From: Tubiluchus corallicola
Taxonomy: Eukaryota; Animalia; Priapulida
Assembly (NCBI GenBank): GCA_030141605.1
Contig: JAQGDQ010000180.1
Coordinates: forward strand, 1 to 64,000
Direction of reading: 5' to 3'
DNA: 64,000 nucleotides
Shown: in pieces, positions 4,369 through 24,904 of the stretch
Numbering within the stretch: the first letter of the stretch is position 1
How the letters are laid out: the number at the start of each line of letters is the position of its first letter
Made by a program: the position numbers and the translations under genes
Notes under the pieces: generated by a model
Database searches by the model: none
Told to the model about the DNA's origin: nothing
The model's input: only the letters and a program-made list of their open reading frames with translations

Positions 4369-4397
4369 TTGACGTTCAAATAAATAATGTTTATAAT
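4369..4397 (+). promoter_or_regulatory. Sigma70-type promoter upstream of murG
   Basis: TTGACG (4369-4374), 17-bp spacer, TATAAT (4392-4397) in the murD-murG gap. Confidence 0.75.
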
Positions 4398-4452
4398 TTA
4401 AAGTGATTACATGTGACTTTATAATAATAATGCAAGGAAATGGAGAAATAAA

Positions 4453-5520: not shown

Positions 5521-5524
5521 TAAA

Positions 5525-6892
5525 TTGGAAAAAGTTTACTTTATAGGAATAAATGGAATTGGAATGAGTGGTCTTGCAAAAGTAATGGCTTGTCAAGGAT
5601 ATGATGTTTTTGGAGCAGACCTAGCAATAAAACCGGTAACTGAAGAATTAAAAAAACAAGGAATAACTATATATAACGAGCATAAAAAAGATAATGTGGA
5701 AGGATCTACTCTAGTAGTATATTCCACTGCAATAAATAGCAACAACCCTGAGCTACAGTATGCAAAAAAAAATAATATTCCAACTATAAGAAGAGGGGAA
5801 CTATTAGGAAGGCTGTTTAATAAGAAAAGAGGTATTGCAGTTGCAGGAACTCATGGTAAGACTACGACAAGTTCAATGTTAGGAAGTGTACTTTTATCTT
5901 TAGACCCTACTATTGTAGTGGGTGGTATTTTACCAGAAATAAGTAGCAATGCACATATAGGAAATGGAGAGCTTTTTATAACAGAAGCAGATGAAAGCGA
6001 TAACTCATTTTTGTTTTTAAAACCGTATCATTCTATTATTACAAATGTTGAAGCTGATCATTTGGAGATACATGGAAGCTTTGATAACATAAAAAAATCT
6101 TTTAAACAATTTATGAATCAAACTAGTTCAAAAAAAATAATAAATATAGATTGTGAAGAACTTCTAAAGCTATCAGAGGATTTAGAAAATAGCAATATAA
6201 TAACCTATAGTATAAAAGATAGCTCAGCAGACATATATGCTTATGATATAAGGGTAGAAAATGGAAAAACTGTATATAAAGTTAACATAAATGGTTATAA
6301 CTTAGGCGACTTTAAACTTTCAATTCCTGGAGGGCATAATATTTCTAACAGCCTAGGAGTGATTTATCTAGCTTTTAATTATAATATAGATTTAAACATA
6401 CTAAAATCTAGGTTAGAAAAATTTAAAGGTGCTAAAAGAAGGTATGATATTTTATATGATAGCAATATAAAAATTATTGATGACTACGCCCATCATCCAA
6501 CTGAAATCAAAGCAACACTGGATGGAGCTAGATCAATAGAAACCAATAAAAAGATAATAGCTATATTTCAGCCTCATAGGTACAGTAGGGTAAAGTTTTT
6601 ATTTGAGGAGTTTAAAGGTGTTTTTGATAAAGCAGATGAAATTATACTTCTTCCTATATATAGCGCAGGAGAAGATGACATATTTGGCATAACATTAGAA
6701 AAAATAGCTGACAAAATAGGTCAACATAAAGAGATAACTATTCTTATGGATGCAGAAGACTTGTATAAAGAGATAGACAAAAGAATAACAGATGATAATG
6801 AAGTATTTTTATTTATGGGAGCAGGAAATATTTCTCAAATGGCGTATAAAATAAAAGAAAGGATTGAAGTAATTAATAATGAAAATACATAA
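5525..6892 (+). CDS. murC: UDP-MurNAc--L-Ala ligase
   Basis: IGINGIGMSGLA, AGTHGKTTT, EADESD, DDYAHHPTE, FQPHRYSR; TTG start after a GGAGG SD. Confidence 0.97.
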   Translation: MEKVYFIGINGIGMSGLAKVMACQGYDVFGADLAIKPVTEELKKQGITIYNEHKKDNVEGSTLVVYSTAINSNNPELQYAKKNNIPTIRRGELLGRLFNKKRGIAVAGTHGKTTTSSMLGSVLLSLDPTIVVGGILPEISSNAHIGNGELFITEADESDNSFLFLKPYHSIITNVEADHLEIHGSFDNIKKSFKQFMNQTSSKKIINIDCEELLKLSEDLENSNIITYSIKDSSADIYAYDIRVENGKTVYKVNINGYNLGDFKLSIPGGHNISNSLGVIYLAFNYNIDLNILKSRLEKFKGAKRRYDILYDSNIKIIDDYAHHPTEIKATLDGARSIETNKKIIAIFQPHRYSRVKFLFEEFKGVFDKADEIILLPIYSAGEDDIFGITLEKIADKIGQHKEITILMDAEDLYKEIDKRITDDNEVFLFMGAGNISQMAYKIKERIEVINNENT

Positions 6893-7718
6893 TTCTTATA
6901 GTATGAAAAATCTTTCAAATATGAAAATTGGAGGTATTGCAAAAGAATATATTGAGGTTGAAACAAGAGAAGATTTGTTAAAAATATTAAAGTCTAAAAA
7001 AAATATATTTATTTTAGGTAATGGAACTAATACATTGATATTTGATGGAGATTTAGACAAAACTTTTGTGAGCTTATTAAGAATGAAACAAATAAAAGAC
7101 CTTGGAAATTATAAAATAGAAGTAGAATCAGGATATAATTTTGATGACTTAATAGATTTTTCTGGTGAAAAAAATTATTCAGGACTAGAAAATCTATCAG
7201 GAATACCAGGAAGTGTTGGTGGGCTAGTGTATATGAACGGTGGAGCTTACGGCACAGAAATATTTGATTGTATAGAAAAAATAGAAATAATAGATGAAAA
7301 TAATGAATTAAAGTGGAAAACAAAGGAGGAAATAAATTTTTCCTATAGAAATACAGAGATTCAAAGAAAATCTTGGGTTGTAGTGTCTGTTGTGTTAAAA
7401 TTAAAAAAAGATTTTGATAAAGAAAAAGTTAAAGAATTAAGAAATAATAGAAAGAAAAAACACCCTATTGATAAACCAAATTTAGGTAGTACTTTTAAAA
7501 ATCCTGAGGGTAAATTTTCAGCAGAACTTATTATAGAAGCGGGGATGCAAGGTCACCAGATAGGAGATGCAAGAATATCCAAAAAACATCCTAATTTTAT
7601 AGAAAACTTAGGAAATGCAAGCTTTGAAGATATAGTGACTTTAATAAAAGAAGTAAAGAAAAAAGTTAAAGAAAAAAGCGGGATAAATTTAGAGGAAGAA
7701 ATAGTAATAGTTAAATAA
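6879..7718 (+). CDS. murB: UDP-N-acetylenolpyruvoylglucosamine reductase
   Basis: IGG.A, LGNGTN, GIPGSVGG..MNGGAYG, FSYRNT, GSTFKNP, SKKHPNFIEN. Confidence 0.95.
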   Translation: MKIHNSYSMKNLSNMKIGGIAKEYIEVETREDLLKILKSKKNIFILGNGTNTLIFDGDLDKTFVSLLRMKQIKDLGNYKIEVESGYNFDDLIDFSGEKNYSGLENLSGIPGSVGGLVYMNGGAYGTEIFDCIEKIEIIDENNELKWKTKEEINFSYRNTEIQRKSWVVVSVVLKLKKDFDKEKVKELRNNRKKKHPIDKPNLGSTFKNPEGKFSAELIIEAGMQGHQIGDARISKKHPNFIENLGNASFEDIVTLIKEVKKKVKEKSGINLEEEIVIVK

Positions 7719-7771
7719 AATATTTTTAGATTAGATATTTAAAAGTAGGTGCACAATATTAAGGAGATTTC

Positions 7772-8458
7772 ATGCTAGGTAAAATATTTTTTATATTTTT
7801 AGTTTTTATTGTTTTATTTTCTATAAAAAATTTTACTATTTTTACAGAAAATGAAATTTTTTCAGTAAAACACATTGAATTTGAAAATGTGACTAAAAGT
7901 GTAGAAAATGATATAATGGTGAACTTAGATATATTAAAAGAGAAAAACATATGGGATATTGAAGAAGAAAATATCAAAGAAATTTTAGAAAAAGATATAA
8001 GAATAGAAAGTGTAAGTATAGAAAAAATTATGCCTAATAAGCTCAAAATAAATATTAAAGAAACAGAACCTTCTATGTATATTAATTATAAGAATAAATT
8101 ATATTTAGTAGATTTTAATGGAAATATACTAGGAACTGCAAATGAATATAAAGGGTATGACCTTATTATAGGAGAAGTAAAAAATATAGAAGAAATAGAA
8201 GATATTCTTAGTGTTCTTAAAAATATTGAAGATGACTTTTTAAAAAACTTTATTTCACAAATAGTCTATGTAAAGCCTTATGAAATAGACCTTATACTTA
8301 AAGATGGTACTAAGATAAAAACGTTACCTATAGTAGTTCCAAAAGAATATACTGTAAGTACTAAATTATATTTGAAGATAAAGAATGAACAAAAAAATAA
8401 AAAAATAGAGTATATTGATATAAGATTTGAAGACTATATTGTAAAATCAGGAGAGTGA
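7772..8458 (+). CDS. ftsQ: Cell division protein FtsQ/DivIB-like
   Basis: N-terminal TM helix, POTRA-like segment ending PNKLKINIKE, C-terminal YIDIRF; directly upstream of ftsA. Confidence 0.75.
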   Translation: MLGKIFFIFLVFIVLFSIKNFTIFTENEIFSVKHIEFENVTKSVENDIMVNLDILKEKNIWDIEEENIKEILEKDIRIESVSIEKIMPNKLKINIKETEPSMYINYKNKLYLVDFNGNILGTANEYKGYDLIIGEVKNIEEIEDILSVLKNIEDDFLKNFISQIVYVKPYEIDLILKDGTKIKTLPIVVPKEYTVSTKLYLKIKNEQKNKKIEYIDIRFEDYIVKSGE

Positions 8459-8462
8459 AATC

Positions 8463-9836
8463 ATGATTAATAGCTTTAAAAACATGAAATTTGGAATAGA
8501 TTTAGGGAGCTCTAGGATAAGAATTTTTTACGGAGAAATATCAGGAGATGGTCGAAGGATAAAGGTAATTGATAGTGAAGAAAGGAAATCTCAAGGTATA
8601 GAACAAGGAATAATAAAGGATAAAGAGAAAGTAAAAGAAATTATACTAGATATTAAAAAAGCTATAGAAAATAAGCATAATATAGATTTTAATAAGGCAA
8701 TGGTTGGAGTAACTGGAGGAAATATAAAATCTATAACAACAAAGGTTTTTTATCTGTATTCTTCAGAAGAAGAATCTCCAGTTACAATAGACGACTTTAA
8801 AAAAACTATAAAAATAGCAGAAAATAAAATAAAAAAAGAAGATGACTATATAATTGATGAAATTCCATATAATTTTAGAATAGATAACTCAGGAATTATA
8901 AAAAAGCCAATAGGAATTCCAGGGAAGGAAATACAAGCTCATGTTCACTTTGTTATAACTCAAAAGGAAAATATAAATACGATTAAAGAATTATTTGAAG
9001 AATGCAATATTGAAGTTGATGGGATTAGGTTAAGTGGATATGCTGCTTCAAAAGCTATTTTATCTATGGAGGATACGAAAGGTATTACCTTTATAGATAT
9101 TGGAGATGGGATAATTGATTTACTTATTTTTAAAAATGATAGATTAATTTATACTTCTTCAATTGCAATGGGAGGTGAATATTTAAAAAAAGATATAAGT
9201 TACTTATTAGATGTGGGAGAAGAAGTTGCAGAAGAAATTTTAAAGGATATTGAAGATAAAGATGATAATGATATAATTAAAATGTCAAATCAATTTGAGG
9301 TTAAGGAAAAGGAAGTATCTGTTTCCTACATAAAAGAAATAATAAGAGCTAGAATAGAAGATATTATTGAATATTTAGAAAAAGATATAGAAAGATCTGG
9401 TTATAAAAAATATATTCAAGAAGGCATAGTAATATCTGGAGGCATATCTAATGTTAGTTTATTTCAAAAAGTGCTAGAAGAAAAATTTGGTGCAGAGGTG
9501 AAAGTTGGAGAAATTATAGAGATAGATGGATTAGATGATGACAAAAGAACTCATGATAAATCAACTTCAATAGGACTTTTATTAGAGGCCTTTGAAAAGG
9601 AATACAGAAATTTAAAAAAAAGAAAGGTAAATAGAGTAAGGGTTGAGCGTAAAAGAAGCAATGAAAAAAGTAGCATAAATACTGAAAGTAAAGAAGAAAA
9701 AAATGAAATGACAACAAGCACAAATAAAAATATTGAAACAAATCTAAATAGTAACATTAAACTTGAAGAAAAGGAAGATGAAAATCTTAAAAAAGAGAAA
9801 TTTAGTTTAAAAAAATGGTTTTCTAACTTTTTATAA
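8463..9836 (+). CDS. ftsA: Cell division protein FtsA
   Basis: GIDLGSS, FIDIGDG, GIVISGG actin-like motifs; C-terminal amphipathic helix FSLKKWFSNFL; upstream of ftsZ. Confidence 0.92.
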   Translation: MINSFKNMKFGIDLGSSRIRIFYGEISGDGRRIKVIDSEERKSQGIEQGIIKDKEKVKEIILDIKKAIENKHNIDFNKAMVGVTGGNIKSITTKVFYLYSSEEESPVTIDDFKKTIKIAENKIKKEDDYIIDEIPYNFRIDNSGIIKKPIGIPGKEIQAHVHFVITQKENINTIKELFEECNIEVDGIRLSGYAASKAILSMEDTKGITFIDIGDGIIDLLIFKNDRLIYTSSIAMGGEYLKKDISYLLDVGEEVAEEILKDIEDKDDNDIIKMSNQFEVKEKEVSVSYIKEIIRARIEDIIEYLEKDIERSGYKKYIQEGIVISGGISNVSLFQKVLEEKFGAEVKVGEIIEIDGLDDDKRTHDKSTSIGLLLEAFEKEYRNLKKRKVNRVRVERKRSNEKSSINTESKEEKNEMTTSTNKNIETNLNSNIKLEEKEDENLKKEKFSLKKWFSNFL

Positions 9837-9864
9837 ATAGAAAAATGTCAGGAGGAAAGATATA

Positions 9865-10917
9865 ATGGACAGTGGAATTGTAAGAATAAAAGTAATGGGA
9901 ATTGGTGGAGCTGGAGGCAATGCTATAGACGATATGATTTCTTCAGGAGTTGGAGGAGTCGAATATATTGCAGCAAATACTGATGCGCAAGATTTACATA
10001 ATTCATTAGCAGATGTAAGGATACAACTAGGAGAAGAATTAACTAGAGGATTGGGAGCTGGAGCTAACCCAGAAATTGGGAGGCAAGCAGCAGAGTCAGA
10101 TCAAGAAAAAATAAAAACACTTTTAGAAGAAACAGATATGCTTTTTGTAACTGCAGGAATGGGAGGAGGCACTGGGACAGGAGCAGCTCCTATAATATCT
10201 GGTATAGCAAAGGGTATGGGGATTCTTACTGTTGGAGTTGTTACAAAACCTTTTACCTTTGAAGGAAGACAAAGAATAAAAAATGCTTTAGAGGGTCTAG
10301 AAAATTTAAAGACAGAAGTAGATGCTTTAGTGGTTATACCTAATGATAAATTATTTGAACTTCCTGAAAAAGTAATTACATTTAAAAATGCATTTAAAGA
10401 GGCCAATAATATTTTAAAGATAGGTATAAAAGGTGTTGCAGAGTTAGTATTACAACACGGTCTAATAAACTTAGATTTTGCAGATTTAAAGGCAGTAATG
10501 GGAAATTCAGGTATTGCTATGCTAGGTTTTGGAGAAGCTGAAGGTGAAAATAGAGCTATGAGAGCTGCAGAAAAAGCTCTTAAGAGTCCTTTACTTGAAA
10601 AAGCAATTAGTGGAGCTAATAAAATATTAATAAAAATAACAGGAGATCAAAACTTTGGGCTAAATGAAGCTTATGCGATTACTAATTTAGTTAGTGAAGA
10701 AGCAGGTAAGCAAGCAGACGATGTAATGTTTGGTCTTGCTTTAGATGAAAGCTTTGAGGATAAAGTAGAAATAACAATTATTGCAACGAATTTTGAAAAT
10801 GAAACTGTAGAAACAAAAGAAAAAGTATTTACAAGGACTACTTCAGAAAAGCCACCTGTAAATACTGACGATAAGGACCTTGAAATACCTGCATGGATAA
10901 GAAGAAAGAACACATAA
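9865..10917 (+). CDS. ftsZ: Cell division protein FtsZ
   Basis: GIGGAGGNA, GLGAGANPE, GMGGGTGTG tubulin signature, INLDFAD, C-terminal LEIPAWIRR. Confidence 0.99.
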   Translation: MDSGIVRIKVMGIGGAGGNAIDDMISSGVGGVEYIAANTDAQDLHNSLADVRIQLGEELTRGLGAGANPEIGRQAAESDQEKIKTLLEETDMLFVTAGMGGGTGTGAAPIISGIAKGMGILTVGVVTKPFTFEGRQRIKNALEGLENLKTEVDALVVIPNDKLFELPEKVITFKNAFKEANNILKIGIKGVAELVLQHGLINLDFADLKAVMGNSGIAMLGFGEAEGENRAMRAAEKALKSPLLEKAISGANKILIKITGDQNFGLNEAYAITNLVSEEAGKQADDVMFGLALDESFEDKVEITIIATNFENETVETKEKVFTRTTSEKPPVNTDDKDLEIPAWIRRKNT

Positions 10918-10922
10918 AAAGC

Positions 10923-10951
10923 TTGAAATTTATTGTTAAAAATGATAAAAT
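10923..10951 (+). promoter_or_regulatory. Sigma70-type promoter of rpsF-ssb-rpsR
   Basis: TTGAAA (10923-28), 17-bp spacer, extended -10 TG-A-TAAAAT (10943-51). Confidence 0.7.
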
Positions 10952-10955
10952 ATTT

Positions 10956-11000
10956 TTCCCTGCTCATAATAAAGATTGGGCAAATATCATAGGGAGGAGG
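10956..11000 (+). promoter_or_regulatory. rpsF 5' leader hairpin (S6:S18 leader-like)
   Basis: TCCCT pairs with AGGGA overlapping the SD; inner stem GCTCA/TGGGC; location matches the known S6:S18-binding leader. Confidence 0.55.
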
Positions 11001-11008
11001 TAGTAATT

Positions 11009-11296
11009 ATGAAAAATTATGAGATCATGTATATAGTTGATCCAAGTGTATCTGAAGAACAAAAAGAAGAGTTGATACAAAAAGTGGAGAGTCTTTTGAA
11101 AAAAAATGATGCAGAGTCTATAGTTACCAAAAAATGGGGCGAGAGAAAATTAGCATACCCAATAGATAAAAAAACAACAGGGTTTTATGTGTTAACTAAT
11201 TTTTCAATTGATGGAAAGTTAATACAAAATATTGAAAAAAAATTAAATATAATTGAAGAATTAATAAGATATATTATTGTTAAAAATGAAAAATAA
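11009..11296 (+). CDS. rpsF: 30S ribosomal protein S6
   Basis: MKNYEIMYI, WGERKLAYPI, IRYIIVK; start moved to ATG 11009 after the AGGAGG SD. Confidence 0.96.
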   Translation: MKNYEIMYIVDPSVSEEQKEELIQKVESLLKKNDAESIVTKKWGERKLAYPIDKKTTGFYVLTNFSIDGKLIQNIEKKLNIIEELIRYIIVKNEK

Positions 11297-11322
11297 TATT
11301 TGTGTTAGGGGATGGTTAAGTA

Positions 11323-11751
11323 ATGTCTATGAATGTGGTAGTTTTAACAGGAAGACTAACAAGAGACCCAGAGCTTAAGTATGGTCAGAGTGGAACAGCT
11401 TATTGTAGGTTTAGCTTAGCTGTAAATAGAGCTTTTGACAAAGATAATACAGACTTTATAAACTGTGTATGTTTTGGAAAAACTGCTGAACTTGTTGGTG
11501 AGTACTTAAGAAAGGGTAAAATGGTAGGGGCAACAGGAAGACTACAAAGTAGTAGCTATGAAGTTGAAGGTCAAAAAAGGTCCCGTTTAGACGTTATTGT
11601 AGATAGAATAGAATTCCTAGAACCTCGTAATTCAACAAGTAATAATTTTGATAATAGCGATGTATTTGATAATATTAAAGAAAGTAAAGAGAATTATAAA
11701 GAATTAGAATCTTCAAAAGATGTTGAAGAAGATGATGATTTCCCATTCTAA
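11323..11751 (+). CDS. ssb: Single-stranded DNA-binding protein
   Basis: MNVVVLTGRLTRDPEL, FSLAVNR, acidic tail DDDFPF; between rpsF and rpsR. Confidence 0.97.
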   Translation: MSMNVVVLTGRLTRDPELKYGQSGTAYCRFSLAVNRAFDKDNTDFINCVCFGKTAELVGEYLRKGKMVGATGRLQSSSYEVEGQKRSRLDVIVDRIEFLEPRNSTSNNFDNSDVFDNIKESKENYKELESSKDVEEDDDFPF

Positions 11752-11784
11752 TATGAAATGGGCATACTGTCAGGAGGTGTAGAA

Positions 11785-12003
11785 TTGGCTGAGTTCAGAA
11801 GAAGAAAAAGAAAACTAAGCATAAAAGTGGAAGATATAAACTATAAAAATGTAGATTTGTTGAAAAGATTTATGTCAGATAAAGGAAAGATTCAACCTGC
11901 AAGAATAACTGGGGCTAATGCAAAAATACAAAGAAAAATAACTCAAGCAATAAAGCAAGCTAGGAATGTAGCGTTATTGCCATATACAAAAAGAGAAAAA
12001 TAA
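11785..12003 (+). CDS. rpsR: 30S ribosomal protein S18 (no Zn-ribbon cysteines)
   Basis: [37 protein letters not shown]; TTG start at 11785 after AGGAGG. Confidence 0.96.
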
Positions 12004-12048
12004 TTTAAAAACATATTTACAAATGGAAATTTTTGAAGTATGCTAGGA

Positions 12049-12095
12049 ATAAAACCTCTTAAGTTACTTATTTATAGTGATTTAAGAGGTTTTAT
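12049..12095. terminator. Intrinsic (probably bidirectional) terminator after rpsR
   Basis: ATAAAACCTCTTAAGTTACT / AGTGATTTAAGAGGTTTTAT 20-bp stem with two G:U pairs and A/T runs at both ends. Confidence 0.75.
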
Positions 12096-12277
12096 GTATT
12101 TAGTAGATACTGATTTTAAAAAGTATTACTCACCTTTAGTTGTTGTTTTTATAATAAAAAAGTCAATGAAAATATAGATCTAAATAAAAAAAATTAAGCT
12201 AAAAAATTTTTAAATTTAAGAATTAATATTAATATATGAAAGTGATGATAGAATATTTATAATAAGATATATAAATT

Positions 12278-12316
12278 TTTCCTAATTAGGAAATAAGTAT
12301 AAAAATATGATATAAT
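12278..12316 (+). promoter_or_regulatory. Extended -10 promoter with overlapping palindromic operator candidate
   Basis: TG-A-TATAAT at 12308-12316; perfect palindrome TTTCCTAATTAGGAAA at 12278-12293 covering the expected -35 position. Confidence 0.45.
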
Positions 12317-12365
12317 TAAAAATCTTTATATAAAAAAATACCTAAATTTGAAATGAGAGAATTAT

Positions 12366-13001
12366 ATGAAATGTAAAATATGCAAAGAAGAAATAAAAAA
12401 AATATTAACAATAAATAATTGTAAATACTATGAATGTTTAACATGTAATACTATATTTAAAGATAAAAAAGCTTATTTAAATGAAAATAATGAAAAGAAA
12501 AGATATAGTTATCATAAAAATACAATAACTAATGTTGGATATTTAAATATATTTGAGAATTTTTTAGATTTTATTTTTGAAAATATTTCAAAAATGCCTA
12601 CGAAAGGACTAGATTTTGGATGTGGTCCAGGAAATGATCTAGTGCTATCTTGGTTAGTGAAAAAAAAATACCATATAACTATGGATGTTTATGATAAATA
12701 TTTTTACCCAGAAAAAATCTATTTAAAAAAAAGTTATGACATAATTTTTTCAACAGAAGTTTTTGAACACCTAAAGTACCCAATGTCAACTTTTGAAACT
12801 TTATTACAAAGTCTAAATAAAAATGGATATATTGCTATAATGACAAGTTTTATTCCAGAAAATTTTGAATCATGGTACTATAAAAATGATCCAACTCATA
12901 TTATATTTTATTCAGAAAAATCATTTGAATATTTATGTAGTAAACATAACTTAGAAATTGTAGCATCAAATAAAAAAAATGTGCTTCTATTAAAAAAATA
13001 A
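12366..13001 (+). CDS. Class I SAM-dependent methyltransferase with N-terminal CxxC..CxxC
   Basis: CKIC..CLTC, LDFGCGPG motif I, YD.I.STEVFEHL, WYYKNDPTHIIFY. Confidence 0.85.
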   Translation: MKCKICKEEIKKILTINNCKYYECLTCNTIFKDKKAYLNENNEKKRYSYHKNTITNVGYLNIFENFLDFIFENISKMPTKGLDFGCGPGNDLVLSWLVKKKYHITMDVYDKYFYPEKIYLKKSYDIIFSTEVFEHLKYPMSTFETLLQSLNKNGYIAIMTSFIPENFESWYYKNDPTHIIFYSEKSFEYLCSKHNLEIVASNKKNVLLLKK

Positions 13002-13037
13002 AATAATTATTACTAAAATAAATTTAAAGAGGAAAAC

Positions 13038-13439
13038 ATGTTTATAATATTATTATTGTTACTTGATCTATTTTTAAAAATACTTTCTAGTAAAGTAAAA
13101 CAAACACCATTGTCTTATTCTAAAAAAATGAGATTTGTTTATTTAGAAAACCATGGATTTATGTTTGGTTTTTTAAATCATAAAAAATATATTATAAAAA
13201 CAGTTTACATAGTAGTGCTGCTTCTATATTTTAAATACTTTTTTTTAGATGAAAGTAATTACTTATGGAAATATATAATGTGTGCTGGAGTTCTTGGAAA
13301 TGCACTAGAAAGGTTAATAAGAGGATATGTTACAGATTATATCCAAATAGGAAAAATTGTTTTTAATCTTGCAGACTTATATATGTTATTTAGTTTTTTT
13401 TTATTAGTTATAGATAAAATAATAGGGAGAAATATATGA
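13038..13439 (+). CDS. lspA: Signal peptidase II-like (peptidase A8), short form
   Basis: D...K, ENHG.MFG, GNALERL, GYVTDYI, VFNLAD with both catalytic Asp positions kept. Confidence 0.65.
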   Translation: MFIILLLLLDLFLKILSSKVKQTPLSYSKKMRFVYLENHGFMFGFLNHKKYIIKTVYIVVLLLYFKYFFLDESNYLWKYIMCAGVLGNALERLIRGYVTDYIQIGKIVFNLADLYMLFSFFLLVIDKIIGRNI

Positions 13440-14533
13440 AAAAAAAATGCATACTAAATACTTATTATTTTATATATTTCTTAGGTTTTGGATCTTGGAC
13501 AATTTTTAATATACTATATTTTAAAAATATTTTAAATTTTTCAGGAAGTGAATATGGACTAATTAACTCTCTCGGAATACTTGTAAGTATATTTTTTATA
13601 CCTTTTTGGGGAATTATAAGTGATAAGTACAAGAAATATAAAATGGTTTTAAAAATATTAATTATTATTACTATTTTTTTATTAATGATTTATAAAGAAA
13701 TGTATTTATTTATACCTGCAATTATAGCAGGGATATGTGTAGATATTTTTAAGTTTTCAACAATACCTCTTGCAGATAATATTGCAATATCCTACTCACT
13801 AGAAAATAACTATAATTTTGGAAAAATAAGATTATTTGGTTCGTTAGGTTTTATAGGAGCAGCTATTTTAATAGAAAGTTTATTAAAAATAGGATTTTCA
13901 ATAAAAATTATATTCAACATATATATAATATCTCTTATAGGTTGTTGGTTATTAATAGATCTATTTCCTGATACAAGTGTAAATACAAAAAAAATAAAAT
14001 TAAAAAAAGATTTGCCAGTATTAGTAAAAAATAATAAATTTGTATTAATTAGCATTATATTCTTCTTATTTATGGGAACAATATCATCATCTATATCTTA
14101 TATGGGAATTTATATAGATACATTTGGAAGCTATACTTTAGGTATTGGGTTAGGCATACTATTATCAGTTTTTCCAGAAATTCCATTTATGTATATAGTA
14201 GATAAGCTTCTTTTAAAATATGGTATTATAAAGCTTATATTATTTGCTATTTTAATTTCTTTGTTTAGGTGGTTGGTTTATTATTTCTCTAAAGACATTT
14301 ATATTTACTATGTACTAGCTACTTTTCACGGAATAGTAAATGGTTTAGTTCTTACATCTGGAGCTATATATGTAAAAAAAAATACCCCTAAAAAAATGTC
14401 TGCAACTTCTTTAACAGTTTTTAACTCTATAGGCTACCTAGGAGGAACAGCTTTTGTAAATCTTATAACAGGAATAACTATAGAAAAATTTGCATTAGGC
14501 ATTTCGGCAGGATCAAAGTCCATATCAAAATAA
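13436..14533 (+). pseudogene. MFS transporter (MFS_1-like / YwbF-type), C-terminally cut at the bacteria-eukaryote junction
   Basis: PFWGIISDK, FGKIRLFGSLGF, PEIPFM, FRW motifs; ends shortly after G.TIEKF with no final TM helix, and the last ~13 codons read into non-bacterial sequence. Confidence 0.75.
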
Positions 14534-14755
14534 GTATCGAATTAATTACTGTATTCAGTTTTTTCAGCAAATATACTGTTAGTAACAGATCATTCAACCA
14601 GATGTCACTTTTAATAGGAAATAATGCACAAAACGCATTCAAGAGGAGCCCTTCAAGCTGAGCAGAATCAAAACATTCATTTCTAGCGTGTTTTGTCATA
14701 TTGGTTTAATTAGATGGACGACTTGGCGAAGATTTAGTGTATGATACAAATTACA

Positions 14756-14895
14756 GTCGTCGTCGTCGTCGTCGTCGTCGTCTTCATCATCACGATAGTC
14801 ATCATCGTCAACATCGTCATCATTTTCATCATCATCATTATCGTCGTCGTCCTCGTCGTCATCAACATCGTCATCATCTTCACCATCATCATCAT
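14756..14895. repeat. Compound (GTC)n/(ATC)n trinucleotide repeat
   Basis: Visible tandem triplets. Confidence 0.95.
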
Positions 14896-16269
14896 CTGGC
14901 TTGGTGTAGTTAATTTATCAATATTTATAAATCGTCGCATTGCACGTTCAACTTTGATTTCTTATCCTTTTGTGAATGAACTTAAGGTATGTTCGTCATC
15001 GAATTAAAATGAAATTGTGAGGCTCTATGGTTTCCACGAAAAATTCTTTAATTACTCAATAAACAACCCAAAAAACTTGCCTGGACATGACATCACTAAC
15101 CAAAATTACCGAGAAAGAGAAACCCTAGAACAACGCCTCCTTACGGCACTGTCTTGACAAGTTTGGGGGCTTAAAAGGGGACCGAGTTTCGCACGGCAAG
15201 TTTCAAGAAACAAGCAGTACAATTTGTTTCATAGGTACAAGGGTAATCATAGAGGGCGCTTAGTGACCAGAGGGAGTGAGACAATGTCGGCGGTAGTGGG
15301 CAAATGTCGAAATCTGCCGAACTGCTGTTTGTCTCATTGGGAGCAGACGTCCAACGTCAAGACACCCCTGTTGGTTGCTATATCACCAGGCTCGAGATAT
15401 ATTACTGATAAGTGATATATTATCGTCACTTAAATTACAGCTAAAAACACTTGGGTTTCAACAAATGCCCCAAATTACTCTTATAGTGATCGTAGACTAG
15501 CTGTTCCTCAAACACGAATGCGGGTTGCCTTTTCTCAACTAAACTTTGACCTGAATCAGAAGGATGTAAAAACTATGATGGAACCCCTGTTTTACCTACC
15601 TGTAGATGCGGTGCCCCTTTTGAATCCATTAATCATTTTCTAATTAGCTGCCCGTTATATCACCAAATCCGAGATATATTACTAAGTAAACTCTGTGCTT
15701 TGTTAATTTCTCATAATATTAGAATTTATAATCTGTCAACAAATAAACTCGTTTATCTGCTTCTTCAAGGAAATCATCACTTACATATCACTTTTAATAT
15801 TCAAGTATTTAAGCTTGAACAGAAATTCATATTTCTTACTCAACGCTTCGAACCATTGTATCAGTTTATATAGATTACATAGTAACATTAATGTCTTTCT
15901 CAACATTATGCTATGTATGTGTATATAATGCTAGTAGTCACACCGTAATGCTTCTACTATTGTCTGCACTCTACGTTTCATTGGTGAGAACATTCATCAG
16001 TTGTTAAAAACTGTCTGTTTAAGTCCTATTGCAATACTTGTTATTCAATAAAAATATGTTTAAACCCCTGCTGGTTCAGTATCTCAACTTGGAGAATTAT
16101 ATTTTATAATTATATACGTTCAGGTCCTGCCACAACTATCAAACAACAAGTAGGCCCTGTTCTTGAGTAGTGGATTCCGGGTTACTGCCAAATGTTTGTG
16201 CCTTTAGGTCAGCTTGACCACACTAAAAACATACTTGGAAGATGCAGCAACACTGTTAAAGCTTAACAA

Positions 16270-16725
16270 TTCATCTTGAAATTTTATATCACTTACATGT
16301 TGTCTTATTGCATACAGGGCTTTCCTTAACAGCAACACTGTATAAAACTTGTAAATTTAAACTGCCGCAATGACCGTTACGTGCAGCCATTTGAAACATT
16401 AACAGCTAGTCATTTGAAAGAAGTTTAGATAACATTACCTTAAGTTTGAAAAGATAATCAGAGCATTCATAGAGCACACTTCACTAACTAAGCCAAAGTT
16501 TAAATTACTTTATATTGTCAATAAGATTAATAACGTATTTTTTGGTGAATCAGTGGTGCACACTGGGGTGGCAAGGCTGTGCGGTTTTACCAGGTGGTGC
16601 GAATATTTCAAATTATTAACAATTTTCTCTTTCAGTTACGTAAGTCTGTCAACAGGTACACGTAATCTAAGCCAATACAACTTTGAATAGTAAAAATACA
16701 TTAAAATTTCATTTTCTTCCCTTTA
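16270..16725 (+). mobile_element. Partial copy of Kolobok-type MITE family A
   Basis: Colinear with 41633-42299 and 47382-48058 (catacagggc, gcagccattt, ataatcagagcattc); termini not seen. Confidence 0.65.
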
Positions 16726-16806
16726 ATTTCACTTAATTCAAACGGTTGTAAACTGATTTTGTATTAAAACTGAATTTAGTAATGAAATCCTAATCATGTA
16801 ACTCAC

Positions 16807-16889
16807 TTGGAATATCTGGAATGCCGATCATCCCATTCGGGATAAGGGCCCGTAACTCCTGGCATCATCTATCACAGCTTCATAGGATC
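16807..16889 (-). other. Candidate spliced host exon with start codon (MMPGVTGPYPEWDDRHSRYS...)
   Basis: Minus strand: TTTTTGTTTCAG acceptor, 83-nt GC-richer exon, GTGAGT donor; ATG at 16868 preceded by in-frame stops and open to the donor. Confidence 0.45.
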
Positions 16890-17042
16890 CTGAAACAAAA
16901 AGGACACCTTGATTACATTTCAAAGGGATAAGATCACAAACGATCACTATGTAAGATGAACTATATTCAGAGTGAACAGTTTAGTGTAGTAAATGTCGTT
17001 ACAAACATTCCCTACTTTTAAATAACCAGTAACATTGGACAC

Positions 17043-17330
17043 AAAGGCTGTTTCATAGAACCCAAAGGCTGTTTCATGGAACTCAAACGCCGTTTCGTGG
17101 AACCTAAAGGCGTTTCACAGCACATAAAGACTGTTTCACAGCACCCAAAGGCTGTTTCACAGCACCCAAAGGCTGTTTCACAGCACTCAAAGGCTCTTTC
17201 ATAGCACCCAAAGGCTGTTTCATAGAACCAAAGGCAGTTTCATAGCACCCAAAGGCTGTTTCATGGAACTCAAAGGCTGTTTCACAACACCCAAAAGCTG
17301 CTCCATAGCATTCAAAGGCTGCCTCACAGA
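17043..17330. repeat. 21-bp minisatellite (~14 degenerate copies)
   Basis: Unit cccaaaggctgtttcacagca. Confidence 0.9.
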
Positions 17331-18489
17331 AATTAGGGAAATTTTACTTCATCGCGGAAAGCCTTTTTAGTTGTACGAACCTAAGAAGAGTGAAAAAAGA
17401 CTCATACTTTTAACAGGGAAGTAAACGCAGAGAAAACTTCAACGTACAACGAGCTCTTCAGAACGGAAAGGGTTGAACAAGAATCAGAACTTCCTTGACA
17501 CGGTTACTTTCGCCCCTTTCGCACGCAATTAAAACGCGTAGACTTCTTTCACGACTAGTCTCATCTGTCAGCGCTGATCAAAATCATCTAATGCTTTTCA
17601 ACCATCTCTGATCTAGCCTTTGTAAGAACGTCTCAATTCTCCACACCTGTCGTAGTTTTCTGTTTATTGATAAACAAACTAAACAATATGGGCAACATGG
17701 AATCTGACTGAACAGTTCACGCAAGCAATTTCTCGCGGACACGAAAACAAACCATTCTACGATCAAAGTGTGGATTGCGAGGCAATGAAAAAAACTACTG
17801 AAAACAATTTTTGAAACTGGTTCAGAATCCCCTGTTTAAGCTTAATACTTTTTCACACGACACGCGTTTGCGCGCGTTTTTTCTCCCATAAAACTGCTAA
17901 AATACATTTTAAATCAAAGAAATTTATGTGATGCGCTTCCACACTGGGAAACGAATTCTTATCTGCGTGTAATTCGTTCACAAAAGAATCAGAATACGTG
18001 AAAAACATCCGCACGCCGTGTACAGCAGCAATTTAAAGCCGTGGATTTACCACCGATCAACTTGTAATGATTACAACGGCAATTTTCCTAGATTTGCTGG
18101 GGTGAATGGCACGGGTTCCTTGCCCAAACATCTACTAACATCAATGATACTGTTTAAATCTTAGATAATAGTAAACTGAAACATTGAATGCCAGGTCAGC
18201 GTCGCGCGTTTTTGTTTCGTTTTGAATAAGCCAATCTCCCTTGGGGGCTGCAGTAAGAATGACACTACAACAGTTATAGAGGACACCCGTACTTTGAAAC
18301 TTTGTTACGTCACGACCTAACCATACAGCCATACAGTACTAGAACACTCGCATCGATTTTTTTATACGCAAAACACCAAGTAGACAATGTTGTTGAAATC
18401 TCTAATTAGGCATAATTGATCTCGCCCAATATTAGTCAGCTACATTCGGGTACTGAAACTGGATTTATTACAGAATATTTAAAAATGAT

Positions 18490-18555
18490 AGTAAGTAAGG
18501 TAAGTAAGGTAAGGTAAGGTAAGGTAAGGTAAGGTAAGGTAAGGTAAGGTAAGGT

Positions 18556-18619
<64 letters not shown>

Positions 18620-18850
18620 TGTATGTATGTATGTATGTATGTATGTATGTATGTATGTATGTATGTATGTATGTATGTATGTATGTATGTATGTATGTAT
18701 GTATGCATGTAAGTAAGTAAGTAAGTAAGTAAGGTAAGTAAGTTAGTTAGTTAGTTAGTTAAGTAAAGCAAGTATGTAAGTAAGAAAGTAAGTAAGCAAG
18801 TAAGTAAGTAAGCAAGCAAGCAAGTACGTAAGCAAGCAAGCAAGCAAGTT
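18490..18850. repeat. Compound microsatellite (GTAAG/GTAA/GTAT/GTTA/GCAA)
   Basis: Visible tandem units. Confidence 0.97.
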
Positions 18851-19226
18851 ACCAACCAACCATCTAAACTAAAAATGATAATAAGAGTTTCCTATTAGTT
18901 GTAGGATATAAGCAGGTAGCAGGATATAAAAATGTCATGACTATTTTTCCTTTGAACAAACTGTCATCAAATGATTTACTTACACCATTCCAATTCTTGG
19001 CCTTTTTGAAACTTGTAACTGGATAATTTCAAACGTTCTGTGTCGGCAGTAGGATATAATCCCAAACATACTCCCAGGCAAAATCAGTACTTGTAGAAAC
19101 TTACACTCCCTAATTTAGCAAGCCATCGAATATTTATTTTCATACGAAACACGTGTGAAACATTCCTATTCTCTGCATCAATTACCGTTTGCATTTTTAT
19201 ACTAAAATGCAACAGTTCACAATGGG

Positions 19227-19524
19227 TTGGTTGGCATCCTGTCTCGGAAGACAATGGAGCGTGCACCAGGAGAGTCAGTTATTGATCACATTGATGGAGC
19301 TGCAGCATCGACTGTGGCTGAGCAGTCCGATCTTTGAACGTCTCCAGGGCGCACACCTGGGCAAGGTGTATGGAGATCCTGAGTTGCCCAGACAACAGGA
19401 ACCCCCTCTCTTCCTCACTGGTGTAGTCCAAAGGAAAGCGGAGCGATACGTTTGGCACCAGGTTGGCTGCAGCAGCTGCGGGAGTGAGTGAGCACGCTGC
19501 ACTGGTCCGCCTTCGGGGCTCCAC
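19227..19524 (-). mobile_element. Bipartite RTE-derived non-autonomous retroelement, copy 1
   Basis: 10-bp TSD TCACAATGGG (19217-26 / 19525-34); encodes RTE C-terminal-like SKIGLLSHSRCC; 3' end ccattgtcttccgagacaggatgccaacc; homologous to the copies at 29807 and 37197. Confidence 0.75.
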
Positions 19525-19874
19525 TCACAATGGGCAATATATCAAATTAAAAACTAATTATCTACTATACGCTTATCGATTTAAAGTGTCACAAGACTTA
19601 GTTTTGATGAATTCGTGTTGCTGTTACGTAGGCTCTAAAGTTAATGTGCCACTTCGGCATACTCTGTTAATGCTGCCAAGCGAGTTTTGACCCTTGAATC
19701 TAATTAGATCAATATTAACCGAAAATAGCACCAAAAATTCTTAATATATGCACTGCCCTACAGACATATTGACAATCAGTTACGTCAAATAACTGCTTTA
19801 TTTTTTACTCTGAACCGAAGCGGCAAATTTTGACCGAGGAGGGTGACCAGCAGAAATTTACGTACTCCCACAAA

Positions 19875-20476
19875 AAACTTGGTCTTGAAATTTTAAACAA
19901 CTGTCTTCTTGCATACAGGGCTTTTTGACGATACATACATACATACGCAGCCATTTTGACGATAAAATCTCCAGAAACAAGTTTAGATAGCACCGAGTAA
20001 AGTTTGAAAAAATAATCAGAGCATTCGTAGTGTATGCGTCACTAAGTAAAATTTTAAATTGCCGTATCTTGTCAATAAAATTGAAAATAAGTTTTTTTAG
20101 CTAGTGAGTGGTGCACCCTGGAGGTGAATCAGCGACATTTTACCAGTTGGTCAAAACATTTTAAATAATTAATAATTTTCTTTTCTAGTTACATAAGTCT
20201 TTCAAGCAGGTAAGCGAAATGCCAAGTAACACAATTTTGCGTAGAAAGTTTTTCGGGACACAATTTAACATTTCCTTTTCTTTTCCTGATTTACGTTGCG
20301 CGTATATGACGTTACGTAACGGCGCGGTAGAAACAGTATTGCTGGAGATTTAAAATGAAAACCAACAAAAAATCCTCTCCACGCGAGTACGATATACGCA
20401 TAAAATTGCTGTAAAGTTATGTAATTTTTAATGCGATTTTTCTGAAACGTACTTCAAATACCTGTTTTCTTGTCCT
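19875..20476 (+). mobile_element. Kolobok-type MITE family A, 5' end degraded
   Basis: Right terminus TTTTCTTGTCCT followed by TTAA (20477-80); body colinear with other A copies. Confidence 0.7.
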
Positions 20477-20840
20477 TTAATAGACAAAATGCTTAAAAAT
20501 ACATGACACTAAATTACTAGCTTATCAAGAGGCACCTTCAAGGCTTCGACAGCCACAGCAGCAACTCCCACACCTTTGGGCCATTCTATTGTATTGTCAA
20601 AGCTCAAAGCTCGTAAAAACATGTAAAAGAGCGGAAAAAGTAGCACAGAGAGAGATACCACCACATACCTCTGCTCATCCATTAGCATAGATAGCAAGTT
20701 GGCAACTTTAGTTCAGTGACCTACGCCCCAAGCTTTCTGCAGTAGTAGCTTTGTGCAAGTTGATAATGGTTCTACTGTCAAACGGGTCTAACCTACAGTA
20801 GTGGTTCACTTTTGAATCGTTCTTGCACTGGAATCACCGA

Positions 20841-21180
20841 TATTCCATACTTAAACGTTCACAACGAATTATATTCCATACATAAACGTTTACAACGAAC
20901 TATATTCCATACTTAAACGTTTACAAAGAACTATATTCCATACTTAAACGTTTACAAGGAACTATACTACTCCATACTTACACGTTTACAACGAACTATA
21001 TTCCATACTTAAACGTTTACAACGAACTATATTCCATATTTAAACGTTTACAACGAATTATATTTCATACATAAACGTTTACAACGAATTATATTCCATA
21101 CTTAAACGTTTACAACGAACTATATTCCATACTTAAACGTTTACAACGAATTATATTCCATACTTAAACGTTTACAACAA
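20841..21180. repeat. 31-bp minisatellite (~11 copies)
   Basis: Unit tattccatacttaaacgtttacaacgaa(c/t)ta. Confidence 0.95.
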
Positions 21181-22088
21181 ACTAGAATTGCATTCTAAAG
21201 TGAACTGCATTCAACTGGTCAGTTTGTCAACTAATCACACTTAGTGAACGAACACAATGACTAGTCACCATCTGGCTAGAAATTTACTAAATTCCTGCAT
21301 AACGAAAACTAAATAATTGAATTTTTACCAAAATTAAAAAGTATCAGTGACCCACTAGTTACTTACTTAGTTATTAATATAGATATTAATTTCGTTTATG
21401 AATCTGTCATTACGCTGTTGTCTAAATATGAGTAAATATTCGTCAGATTAACTCTTTTTTTCTAGTACACTAACTAAGTTAACTGCGCCATCATATGATC
21501 ACTGATGTAACCCGTTACACAAAGTCTCTATTGTTATATGTTTACGTATTAGGCGTTGTGTTTGCATGATCTTGCTTCATTAGTTTATCTATGATACCCC
21601 CTGTTGGTGGGTGTTTCTCGTAATCTCACGCCTTAAACAATCCGGGACGGCCACCTACACACGCGGTTTTTCGGTTGAGCTTCTTAACTATGAAATCTAC
21701 AACCAAAACACTTGTTACCTTGCGTAATAGCATCTCTACCGTTTCACGAACAAGCCAACATACGCTTAAAAGCGAGGTGAACAGCTGAACTGTTACTTTA
21801 TTCATAGAGCGAGTTAAGTTAAGCAGCATCGGGCTTGGTCTGTAAATGGAAAGGTGAGTCTGGTTCAATGTTGGTTCTGGGCGATTTAACCTTCACTCTG
21901 TCTCTCATCAGGACGTGACTGGGATGCCACTGCCAGTCTAGTGCCTCATCTTAAAAGTTATCATTGATAACGCAATACAGATCTCGGTCCTATCAGATTC
22001 TATTCATACTGCAAGTTTCAGTCAAACACAGAAATGGAAATCGAAATCAACGCGCCAACACGAAAATCGAAAAAGACTGGATCGTTAA

Positions 22089-22710
22089 AGGAAAACCGGA
22101 CCCAATCTTAAACTGTAGTTCAAAACAATCTACTCTTTAAGAAATTGAAAGGAAACGTACTATTTTTTCAAAAATGATTTATTACCACACAAACACAATT
22201 TCACGTTCACGCCACTAGTTCTTTGCTGTTACATGGATTTCGCCATTCCATAGTTAGACGGGCACTAGCGCCTGCATTTCGGAAACGCAAAGCACAAAAA
22301 CACGTGCTGTACCTGTCAGTTCAGATATGATATGAAAATTCAGTTTTTACCTTAAAACCTGCCTAGTTTTAGTACAACACACTGAATCTCTTACAGTAGT
22401 ACTTCAATTTTCGCTTTCGCTAACACGTGCAACATTTGTGCTGTTGAAAATTATGTTAGTTTGAGATGTCATAAATATTTAATTACCACAAACGGTTTTG
22501 CAGCATTAATTCTGTTAAAATGAACACTTTTTATTTTATTTTCAAGAGTGACACTTATATTCATTCTACTTTGCATACGAAATGGACGTCATTTCTGTTC
22601 CACAGACATAATGATTTCACTACTTGAATTTATGAATTTTAAATAATGTTTATTGATTGTGTACTAATAACGTAATTATATTCCTATTATCGTTTACTTG
22701 TATATATGTG

Positions 22711-22777
<67 letters not shown>

Positions 22778-22981
22778 GTGTGTGTGTGTTTGTGTGCAAT
22801 TAATTTAATCTTTATTTTTACTACTAAAATTTTAGGTAAGGCTATTTTAAATTTTCACATATTTTATGTATTGTTTTGCATTTTTATATTAACTTTCTTG
22901 TCTGAAAAAAAATTATAATCAATCAATTATCGGACTTGAAAATGGGGATTACATGTATATGAAAAATCATCCTGTCTTCCT
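22089..22981 (+). mobile_element. Kolobok-type MITE family B with nested insert
   Basis: TTAA|AGGAAAACCGGA ... TCCTGTCTTCCT|TTAA; extra segment ~22535-22930 containing (TG)n. Confidence 0.8.
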
Positions 22982-23374
22982 TTAAGCTGAAAAGTTCCTT
23001 GAAGAAATACTCAATGATTTAACGACTGTACCATTACACAACTACAGCTGCATGAGCTGTAACATCAATGTTGCACTATGATGGCCAATGATCTTAAAAA
23101 TGCGCTCAATTACTACAAGACGACAATAGCAGGCCTTGACAATGTTAACAAGAGTCAACCAGAAAGATTACCAATCAAGGCAAGTTAACTATGCAAATTT
23201 ACCTTTACTAATCTAAACACGACGAGAGAGACTATTTAAAATAACATTCTATTTTTTCACCATGGACATGTGAAAATGCTTAACGATTAGACCTTGAGTG
23301 TAATAACAACGTTTCAATGAAGTTGCAATGTAAACAGGTAACGCTTTGCGGCAGCTAATTACTCATTTAAAATT

Positions 23375-24620: not shown

Positions 24621-24904
24621 AAATAAAATCAAATTCGAAGATGAAAATGACCTTTACAAGTTTCGGATATCGAAACGCACTTGCCATAGTAACCATACTA
24701 AGCAGCTGCAGAAATAGCAATTTACTTAATTATACATTTTTACCTAAAATTGAATTAACCTTGTACTAGTTACAAGTCAAACAGCTATTAATGTTTACGC
24801 GCAGAGGATTCACGCAAAAATCAATAACGCCGGAATCGGAAAGCTTGTAAATTCTCACATAAATTCAATGTCAAATAGGTAGAGATAGAGAATATGTCAA
24901 ATAT

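What the first reader, a model, noticed from the sequence alone, without database searches (positions are those of the whole stretch)
14440..14900. Abrupt bacterium-to-animal junction inside an MFS gene: lateral insertion or chimeric assembly
Seen: 14.5 kb of gene-dense, intact, very AT-rich bacterial DNA ends mid-gene (MFS lacking its last helix; break at about 14490-14500). It continues with no N-gap into microsatellite- and TE-rich animal-like DNA. No bacterial ORF is frameshifted, promoters and terminator are intact, and no host TE has landed in the bacterial part although the animal part is crowded with them. Inference: either a very recent insertion of a symbiont fragment into an invertebrate genome or, more likely a priori, a chimeric join. 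The (GTC/ATC)n tract ~260 bp from the break is a possible mis-join aid. Known large endosymbiont-to-animal transfers mostly involve intracellular Wolbachia-type donors, so a real Fusobacteriota-type donor would be unusual.
Basis: partly seen in the sequence, partly recalled or inferred. Interest (0 to 1): 0.85.

Follow-up and report, generated by a model that had tools for sequence, protein, structure and literature searches.

The report
Bacterium-animal join is an assembly artefact
A 14.5-kb piece of an apparently undescribed Fusobacteriaceae bacterium is joined mid-gene to invertebrate DNA, but sequencing runs holding this DNA show the animal chromosome running on without it and the bacterial part at a small fraction of the animal's depth, so the join is likely an assembly error rather than a gene transfer.

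Summary
The junction is really in the window. Bases 1-14491 hold 16 intact bacterial genes, ending inside an MFS transporter that lacks its last 36 residues, and animal DNA starts at 14495. The join is very likely not biological. In 3 of 3 runs of sample S1, host contigs match from exactly 14495 and run on leftwards for 475, 275 and 90 letters of other sequence, at full host depth. Bacterial contigs in run X1 have depth 5-15 against 169-192 for host contigs, also at matched GC. No listed contig bridges the break, and there is no microhomology there. The microsatellite is not at the break. The bacterium itself is real: a deep Fusobacteriaceae branch, tentatively sister to Psychrilyobacter (best FtsZ identity 69%). 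Short pieces at least 99% identical recur in two other studies, and a sister strain differs by mostly synonymous changes. Raw reads were not available, so a private or mosaic insertion keeps about 3%. The scan's earlier notes hold no similar finding.

The parts
1..14491 (+). Block of genomic DNA from an uncultured Fusobacteriaceae bacterium: 16 ORFs, all on the + strand; its left end lies at or beyond the window edge
   Evidence: contigs of runs X1 and X2 match it at about 99-100%
639..10917 (+). dcw cluster murF-mraY-murD-murG-murC-murB-ftsQ-ftsA-ftsZ, same order as in fetched Fusobacteriota loci; no room for a further gene between murB and ftsQ, unlike most of them
10976..12003 (+). rpsF-ssb-rpsR, directly after ftsZ as in several Psychrilyobacter and Ilyobacter loci (e.g. 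L005, L007, L027)
12049..12095 (+). Terminator-like hairpin after rpsR
   Evidence: 1 found, 0.0 in shuffles
13436..14533 (+). MFS_1_like transporter ORF: bacterial to codon 352 (14491), then 13 unrelated codons (one unassigned, twelve from host DNA) to a stop; last 36 residues of the relative P0001 missing
14492..14495 (.). The join: three unassigned bases (14492-14494), then the first host base 14495; no microhomology with the host's true upstream sequence
14495..14747 (.). Single-copy-depth host DNA whose real upstream neighbour is non-bacterial sequence (empty site)
   Evidence: table 8 (X1 record 6, X2 record 15, X3 record 18); table 7
14756..14896 (.). Host (GTC)n/(TCA)n microsatellite, 261 bases from the break; not involved in the join
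14495..64000 (.). Repeat-rich invertebrate DNA, including a BEL/Pao LTR retroelement in four separate ORFs at 53894-59541

Best explanation
The junction is likely an inter-kingdom assembly chimera: DNA of a Fusobacteriaceae bacterium sequenced together with the animal was joined end to end to a host fragment at 14492-14495, with no shared sequence at the join. Shown: the host locus continues into its own non-bacterial sequence at full depth, the bacterial block is at much lower depth, and the join has no microhomology or repeat. Inferred, about 70% within this explanation: one chimeric long molecule or read (ligation during library preparation, or two molecules read as one) was taken into the contig. 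The bacterium's own reads, which cover nearly the whole block in run X2, would then have given the bacterial arm its clean, frameshift-free consensus. The other 30% is a gap-closing or graph-level mis-join. The bacterium is likely a living, recurring associate of this animal (a gut or surface anaerobe), not part of its chromosomes.
For: (1) Empty site: in 3 of 3 runs of sample S1 a host contig matches from exactly 14495 and runs on leftwards for 475 (X1), 275 (X2) and 90 (X3) letters unlike the window (table 8; side read from strand and record positions; X2's loose end is listed directly table 7). (2) These through-running contigs have depth 177.3 and 14.1, like neighbouring host contigs (168.7 and 191.6; 14.5). 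If the upstream part lay on one haplotype only, about 124 and 11 would be expected. (3) Depth step: the four long bacterial contigs listed for X1 have depth 15.1, 7.6, 5.1 and 11.1. The 2697-base one (0 differences; GC 0.305, its ftsZ part 0.348) has 15.1, against 177 and 192 for host pieces of GC 0.344 and 0.338. (4) About 175 looks like the single-copy host depth: single contigs from other repeat copies in X1 sit at 171-179 in 5 of the 12 rows shown table 5c (a table that keeps the best supported rows). (5) The bacterium:host ratio differs between libraries of one sample: mean over 28 bins 0.05 in X1, 0.20 in X2. (6) No joint is listed over 1-15340, and none of the listed pieces bridges the break. 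(7) The six letters before 14495 differ at 5 of 6 positions between the host contig and the window. (8) X4, from another study, has the host flank at depth 11.7 but bacterial pieces averaging 0.48 per bin. (9) X1 and X4 also hold a sister strain about 90% identical in ssb; 14 of 14 listed differences are at third codon positions and 13 are synonymous, as expected for a living bacterial population. (10) Chimeric long reads are documented: at least 1.7% of reads in one nanopore ligation kit (PMC5600009, abstract); up to 0.81% in HiFi libraries and 69.3% in MDA (PMC11809032, passages). [quoted passage not shown]
Against: All laid runs are contigs, not raw reads. The tool warns that contig depth is no copy number, that rare variants are dropped and that a hole proves nothing, so a rare true junction molecule would be invisible. 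No bacterial contig continuing into the intact MFS C-terminus was seen; none covers 14417-14494. That S1 is the individual the window was assembled from is inferred from an 87% word share and perfect long matches, not shown. The window also differs from the S1 contigs at a few host sites (15029 in X1 and X2, 16796 in X1, 14646 in X2 and X3), which may be heterozygosity, window errors or another individual. The block is free of frameshifts, cleaner than one raw long read would be, so polishing or several bacterial reads must be assumed. Whether the block ends at a contig end could not be seen, because no genome is held. Only 32 pieces per call are printed, 11724 and 89 more not shown.
Confidence: 0.95

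Rival explanations
1. A real, very recent insertion of at least 14.5 kb of Fusobacteriaceae DNA, private to the assembled individual (if that is not S1) or present in a small share of its cells.
For: The join has no N-gap, and a blunt join is what end-joining repair could leave. The bacterium recurs with this animal, so a donor is at hand. Contigs drop rare variants, so a mosaic junction would not show (tool caveat). The window differs from S1 contigs at a few host sites.
Against: The block is 100% identical over 2697 bases to a low-depth sequence in S1 whose host locus is empty at full depth, so the ordinary source of a chimera is demonstrably in the sample. A mosaic allele rare enough to be invisible would be unlikely to become the assembled path. 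Fusobacteriaceae are not known to live in germ cells (own knowledge). One paper search for a fusobacterial insertion in an invertebrate genome gave 1 paper, off topic by its listing.
Confidence: 0.03
2. A germline insertion, heterozygous or fixed, in sample S1 or in the species.
For: Near-identical bacterial pieces occur in three samples from three studies, which a shared insertion would also give. In X2 the bacterial contigs (about 4) are only 3.5-fold below host (14).
Against: A heterozygous insert would give about 88 in X1; observed are 5-15. The empty-site contig is at full depth (177 vs 124 expected if hemizygous). X4 has the block at about 1/24 of host depth. The ratio varies fourfold between X1 and X2 of one sample.
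Confidence: 0.01
3. An artefact, but caused by a false overlap through the (GTC/ATC)n microsatellite or another repeat shared by the two genomes.
For: The tract lies only 261 bases from the break, and the read-laying tool skips it as a repeat.
Against: The break is in unique sequence 253 matched bases upstream of the tract. The bacterial side has no such repeat, and none of the ten best left-versus-right blastn hits lies at the join. The letters on the two true paths differ right up to the break.
Confidence: 0.03

Closest known systems
Inter-kingdom chimeric contigs in eukaryote assemblies (TRIM/FIX class of NCBI FCS-GX; PMC10898089, passages read)
   Same: A contaminant span fused to host sequence inside one contig. 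The paper notes that chimeras are often at contig ends and are under-reported when the contaminant species is missing from the database, which fits a donor with only about 62% protein identity to known genomes.
   Different: No N-gap at the join. Whether the block is terminal or internal in its contig could not be seen.
Chimeric long reads (PMC5600009, abstract; PMC11809032, passages)
   Same: Two unrelated molecules joined end to end without homology.
   Different: The read itself was not seen; only contigs were available, and the platform of the runs is not on record.
Nuclear Wolbachia transfers (nuwts) in insects and nematodes (PMC5429809, abstract; PMC10898089, passage)
   Same: Bacterial DNA contiguous with invertebrate DNA in an assembly.
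   Different: Real transfers sit at host-linked depth and come from intracellular endosymbionts. Here the block is at about 1/12 of host depth in X1, the site is empty at full depth, and the donor group is not known as a germline resident (own knowledge).
Psychrilyobacter (Fusobacteriaceae), gut anaerobes of marine invertebrates (PMC10580919, abstract)
   Same: Nearest branch in the five-gene tree (support 91/89, not starred); FtsZ 68-69% identical; the same ftsZ-rpsF-ssb-rpsR order.
   Different: Long separate branch (0.57 changes per column), about 61% identity over five conserved proteins, and a shorter murB-ftsQ interval. It is likely a separate genus-level lineage, not Psychrilyobacter itself.

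Membership tests
Bacterium-to-animal lateral insertion (nuwt-like) | Inserted block at half or full host depth | tested here: not met
   X1: 5-15 vs 169-192, also at matched GC; X2: about 4 vs 14; X4: mean 0.48 vs 11.7; contig depths, not raw reads
Bacterium-to-animal lateral insertion (nuwt-like) | Empty site absent or on one haplotype only | tested here: not met
   Host contigs run through 14495 into other sequence in 3 of 3 S1 runs; depth 177 vs 124 expected if hemizygous in X1, 14.1 vs 11.0 in X2
Bacterium-to-animal lateral insertion (nuwt-like) | Junction carried by several independent molecules | tested here: inconclusive
Bacterium-to-animal lateral insertion (nuwt-like) | Second junction at the other end of the block | not testable with these tools
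   The block reaches window position 1; no genome is held
Bacterium-to-animal lateral insertion (nuwt-like) | Decay or host repeats within the block (older transfers) | tested here: not met
   16 of 16 ORFs open, 94% coding, no host repeat; neutral for a brand-new insertion
Inter-kingdom assembly chimera | Depth step at the join | tested here: met
Inter-kingdom assembly chimera | Host sequence continues past the join into its own flank | tested here: met
   table 8; table 7
Inter-kingdom assembly chimera | Contaminant present in the sample as a separate organism | tested here: met
   Low and library-dependent depth; sister strain with 13 of 14 listed ssb changes synonymous; separateness is inferred from these
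Inter-kingdom assembly chimera | Bacterial sequence continues past the join into the intact gene end | tested here: inconclusive
   No contig of X1, X2 or X3 covers 14417-14494; a hole proves nothing
Inter-kingdom assembly chimera | Join supported by zero or one raw read | not testable with these tools
   All six listed runs are kept as contigs
Fusobacteriaceae | Nests inside the family in a conserved-protein tree | tested here: met
   Five-gene IQ-TREE tree, 24 rows; window inside starred clades (99/100, 98/97) of rows labelled Fusobacteriaceae, rooted on a Leptotrichiaceae outgroup; all rows came from one FtsZ-seeded search
Genus Psychrilyobacter | Genus-level similarity (AAI or 16S) and placement within the genus | tested here: not met
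   About 61% identity over five conserved proteins; outside the 100/100 Psychrilyobacter clade; no 16S or whole-genome AAI could be computed
MFS_1_like transporters (PF12832) | Profile match above cut-off and full C-terminal helix | tested here: not met
   Match 112.7 bits, residues 7-352 to profile 4-365 of 373, but the last 36 residues of P0001 are absent; the truncation is the artefact

The most novel reading that the evidence does not exclude
A brand-new insertion of at least 14.5 kb from an extracellular Fusobacteriaceae associate into an invertebrate chromosome, private to one individual or to a minority of its cells and caught before any decay. It would be a bacterium-to-animal transfer from a donor group not known to enter germ cells.
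Probability: 0.03. Interest if true: 0.8.

Novelty: not a real feature. Interest (0 to 1): 0.12.

Why it matters
As a junction it matters only for quality control: this contig should be split at 14492-14495, or its 16 genes will be read as horizontally acquired animal genes. A donor this distant from known genomes is the kind that screening can miss (PMC10898089, passages). The by-product is modestly interesting (about 0.3; probability about 0.75): a Fusobacteriaceae lineage with no close relative in the collections searched (FtsZ at most 69%). It appears in three samples from three studies, two labelled as the same animal species and the third holding its DNA, together with a sister strain, so it is likely a regular associate whose genome could be assembled from the same data. 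Had the insertion been real, it would have extended large bacterium-to-animal transfers beyond intracellular donors.

Tried and rejected
Whole-genome look for the other end of the block and for further bacterial contigs: not possible, no genome is held. Holes in cover (X1 13613-14215; 14417-14494 in X1-X3; no host flank in X5) were not used as evidence. A free-living relative with the same MFS neighbourhood: none of 80 GTDB loci has the methyltransferase, the signal peptidase II-like gene or the MFS within the fetched flank. The MFS scan of JGI metagenomes gave 0 relatives among 599 candidate stretches, and the MurC scan gave 1 distant locus (37%) among 291. The FtsA protein search returned only 5 distant hits (23-25%) and missed the 30-37% relatives seen, so it is insensitive and says nothing. 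Exact look-ups of window FtsZ, MurC and MFS: 0 of 3 in the collection. Host genes near the break: 21 short right-side or junction ORFs scanned against Pfam gave one weak sub-threshold hit (DUF599, E 0.002), rejected; the other 4 of the 25 are the BEL/Pao ORFs. GC bias as the cause of the depth step: rejected by the GC-matched comparison. The host flank as a roughly 12-copy repeat with true single-copy depth near 15: rejected, because a single contig explains the depth at 14495-14747 and 14900-15220 and depths of 171-179 recur at other loci. Microsatellite-aided mis-join: rejected (see rivals). A Hi-C ligation junction: the host side begins at a C^TNAG-type site, but the bacterial side does not end in a filled-in site (enzyme set recalled). 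Promoter scan: no excess over shuffles. For the trees, 63 of 80 loci had all five genes at over 60% length, and 23 of these were hand-picked for the IQ-TREE run. The FastTree tree left the window's position unresolved (local support 0.00-0.11). Bin means include short chance hits, so they overstate bacterial depth in X1. Supplements were not consulted.

Full report
Observation. The first 14.5 kb of the window are bacterial. There are 16 ORFs on the + strand, and all 16 match Pfam families: a GmhB-like phosphatase, the dcw cluster from murF to ftsZ, rpsF-ssb-rpsR, a methyltransferase, a signal peptidase II-like gene and an MFS transporter (names inferred from families and order). Coding density is 94%, GC is 26% against 37% to the right, CpG o/e is 0.29 against 0.82, and the window has no N. 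GC skew is positive in all 14 one-kb bins up to 14000 and then collapses. A Markov change-point lies at 14488-14489. The MFS aligns with its closest database relative P0001 (387 aa) up to Phe352, codon 14489-14491. It then reads 13 unrelated residues to a stop at 14531-14533, so 36 residues including the last helix are missing. To the right lie microsatellites, many tandem arrays and a BEL/Pao retroelement in four ORFs. Earlier notes on other pieces of this genome call the host an invertebrate, one of them a worm (unchecked). The terminator after rpsR is real; promoter matches are at chance level.

Who the bacterium is. FtsZ is at most 69% identical to any of 80 loci from GTDB species representatives and to the best 120 listed of 340 database proteins (only 7999 candidates were scored). 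The order murF to ftsZ, then rpsF-(ssb)-rpsR, is shared with many of those loci. I built a five-gene tree (MraY, MurG, MurC, MurB, FtsZ; 1767 columns; 24 rows hand-picked from 63 usable loci plus the window). It puts the window inside Fusobacteriaceae with starred support, on a long branch, tentatively sister to Psychrilyobacter (91/89, not starred). FastTree left that position unresolved. Psychrilyobacter prefers the guts of marine invertebrates (PMC10580919, abstract), so an animal-associated relative is unsurprising.

The test of the join. No genome is held, but six public runs were listed, all as contigs. X1, X2 and X3 are one sample (S1) and hold 87%, 72% and 26% of the sampled words of 10000-19500. 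That S1 is the assembly's source is inferred, not shown. Laid on 11000-17000, each of the three has a host contig that matches from exactly 14495 to 14747 and carries 475, 275 and 90 further letters on the left that do not fit the window. For X2 the loose end before 14495 is listed directly; its last six letters differ from the window's at five positions, so there is no microhomology. These through-running contigs have depth 177.3 (X1) and 14.1 (X2), the same as neighbouring host contigs (168.7 and 191.6; 14.5). If the upstream flank lay on one haplotype only, about 124 and 11 would be expected. The host locus in S1 is therefore empty, likely on both haplotypes.

Depth. The long bacterial contigs listed for X1 match the window almost perfectly (0 differences over 2697, 830 and 374 bases; one site in a fourth of 499) but have depth 15.1, 11.1, 5.1 and 7.6. 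GC does not explain this: the ftsZ region (GC 0.348) lies in the contig of depth 15.1, while host pieces of GC 0.344 and 0.338 have 177 and 192. A depth near 175 recurs on single contigs from other repeat copies (5 of 12 rows shown, table 5c), so it looks like the single-copy level. In X2 the bacterial block is covered in nearly every bin at about 4 per contig against 14. The mean ratio over 28 bins is 0.05 in X1 and 0.20 in X2, and two libraries of one sample should not differ fourfold for chromosomal DNA. Over 1-15340 no joint is listed and no listed piece bridges the break (89 pieces not shown). The depth of bin 14417-14617 is fully explained by the host contig alone in X1, X2 and X3. That hole is not itself evidence, and it means the intact MFS end could not be seen. 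The tool warns that contig depth is no copy number and that rare variants are dropped, so the argument rests on the through-running host contigs plus the size of the step.

Other samples. X4 (study P2, no organism label) holds the host flank at depth 11.7 and host repeats. It has seven listed bacterial pieces of 151-198 bases with no differences, averaging 0.48 per bin. X5 (study P3, same species label as S1) holds six pieces of 131-183 aligned bases with 0-1 differences, spread from the first gene to the signal peptidase gene (its seventh laid record gives only two 18-base chance hits). Some X5 pieces end in what I recall as a template-switch oligo and a transposase adapter, which hints at a cDNA library and so at a transcribing bacterium; the run is only guessed as DNA, so this is a hint. 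X1 and X4 also carry a sister strain about 90% identical in ssb, with 14 of 14 listed differences at third codon positions and 13 synonymous. Recurrence alone would fit a shared insertion too, but the depths do not. Cross-contamination between runs cannot be excluded for such short pieces.

Mechanism. Shown: a blunt join with at most three unassigned bases, no shared repeat, an empty host site and a depth step. Inferred: a chimeric long molecule or read was taken into the contig. [quoted passage not shown] The frameshift-free consensus needs further bacterial reads or polishing; X2 shows such reads exist. The window lacks one base in an A-run near 12334 relative to the X1 and X2 contigs, a typical long-read consensus slip (inference). 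A gap-closing or graph mis-join is the alternative artefact route. The microsatellite is not involved: the break lies 253 matched unique bases upstream of it.

Comparison with known cases. The feature works like, and meets the tested criteria of, an inter-kingdom chimeric contig. It fails the depth and empty-site criteria of a Wolbachia-type nuclear transfer (PMC5429809, abstract only). One full-text search for a fusobacterial lateral insertion in an invertebrate genome gave one paper, off topic by its listing; this is a narrow search. The scan's own notes hold nothing near this place and nothing similar by words or sequence.

Verdict. Artefact, confidence 0.95; interest 0.12. A private or mosaic real insertion keeps about 3% until raw reads are counted. 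The lasting yield is an apparently undescribed Fusobacteriaceae lineage that recurs with this animal.

Noticed in passing
window 1-14491; runs X1, X2, X4, X5: The bacterium has no close relative in the collections searched (FtsZ at most 69%, about 62% over five conserved proteins), yet pieces at least 99% identical occur in three samples from three studies: likely a regular, undescribed genus-level Fusobacteriaceae associate of this animal.
   Followed up: partly
window 11338-11548 (ssb), runs X1 and X4: A sister strain or species about 90% identical, with the same variant letters in two studies; 13 of 14 listed changes are synonymous.
   Followed up: partly
window 7097 and 13255-13385, run X5: Contig ends resemble a template-switch oligo and a transposase adapter (recalled motifs). 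The oligo precedes sense-strand murB sequence, so X5 may be a cDNA library that captured bacterial transcripts, although it is listed as 'DNA?'.
   Followed up: no
window 14494-14499: In the host's true sequence the break falls exactly at a C^TNAG-type restriction cut that overlaps a GATC site. About 1.9% of host positions are cuts of the four common Hi-C enzymes (set recalled), but the bacterial side does not end in a filled-in site, so this is probably chance.
   Followed up: partly
window 12331-12334: The window lacks one base in an A-run relative to contigs of X1 and X2 (X3 shows the same changed letter): likely a consensus error in the assembly.
   Followed up: partly
window 7718-7772: murB is followed directly by ftsQ. 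Most fetched Fusobacteriaceae loci have about 1 kb more here (likely ddl, recalled); L060, L075 and L076 share the short interval and also have a gmhB-like gene before murF.
   Followed up: no
window 53894-59541: BEL/Pao LTR retroelement in four separate ORFs, with a SAP domain at the start of the gag-like ORF.
   Followed up: no
window 16226-16627: A very high-copy host repeat (summed depth about 385,000 in X1, roughly 2000 times the single-copy level).
   Followed up: no
window 23375-24621, 24934-25414, 45446-46117, 61323-61668: Tandem arrays with units of 62, 70, 56 and 85 bases, 89-95% matches.
   Followed up: no
run X1: Its longest contig is 195,318 bases, far above the host contigs laid here; this may come from another, more abundant microbe in the sample (inference).
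   Followed up: no
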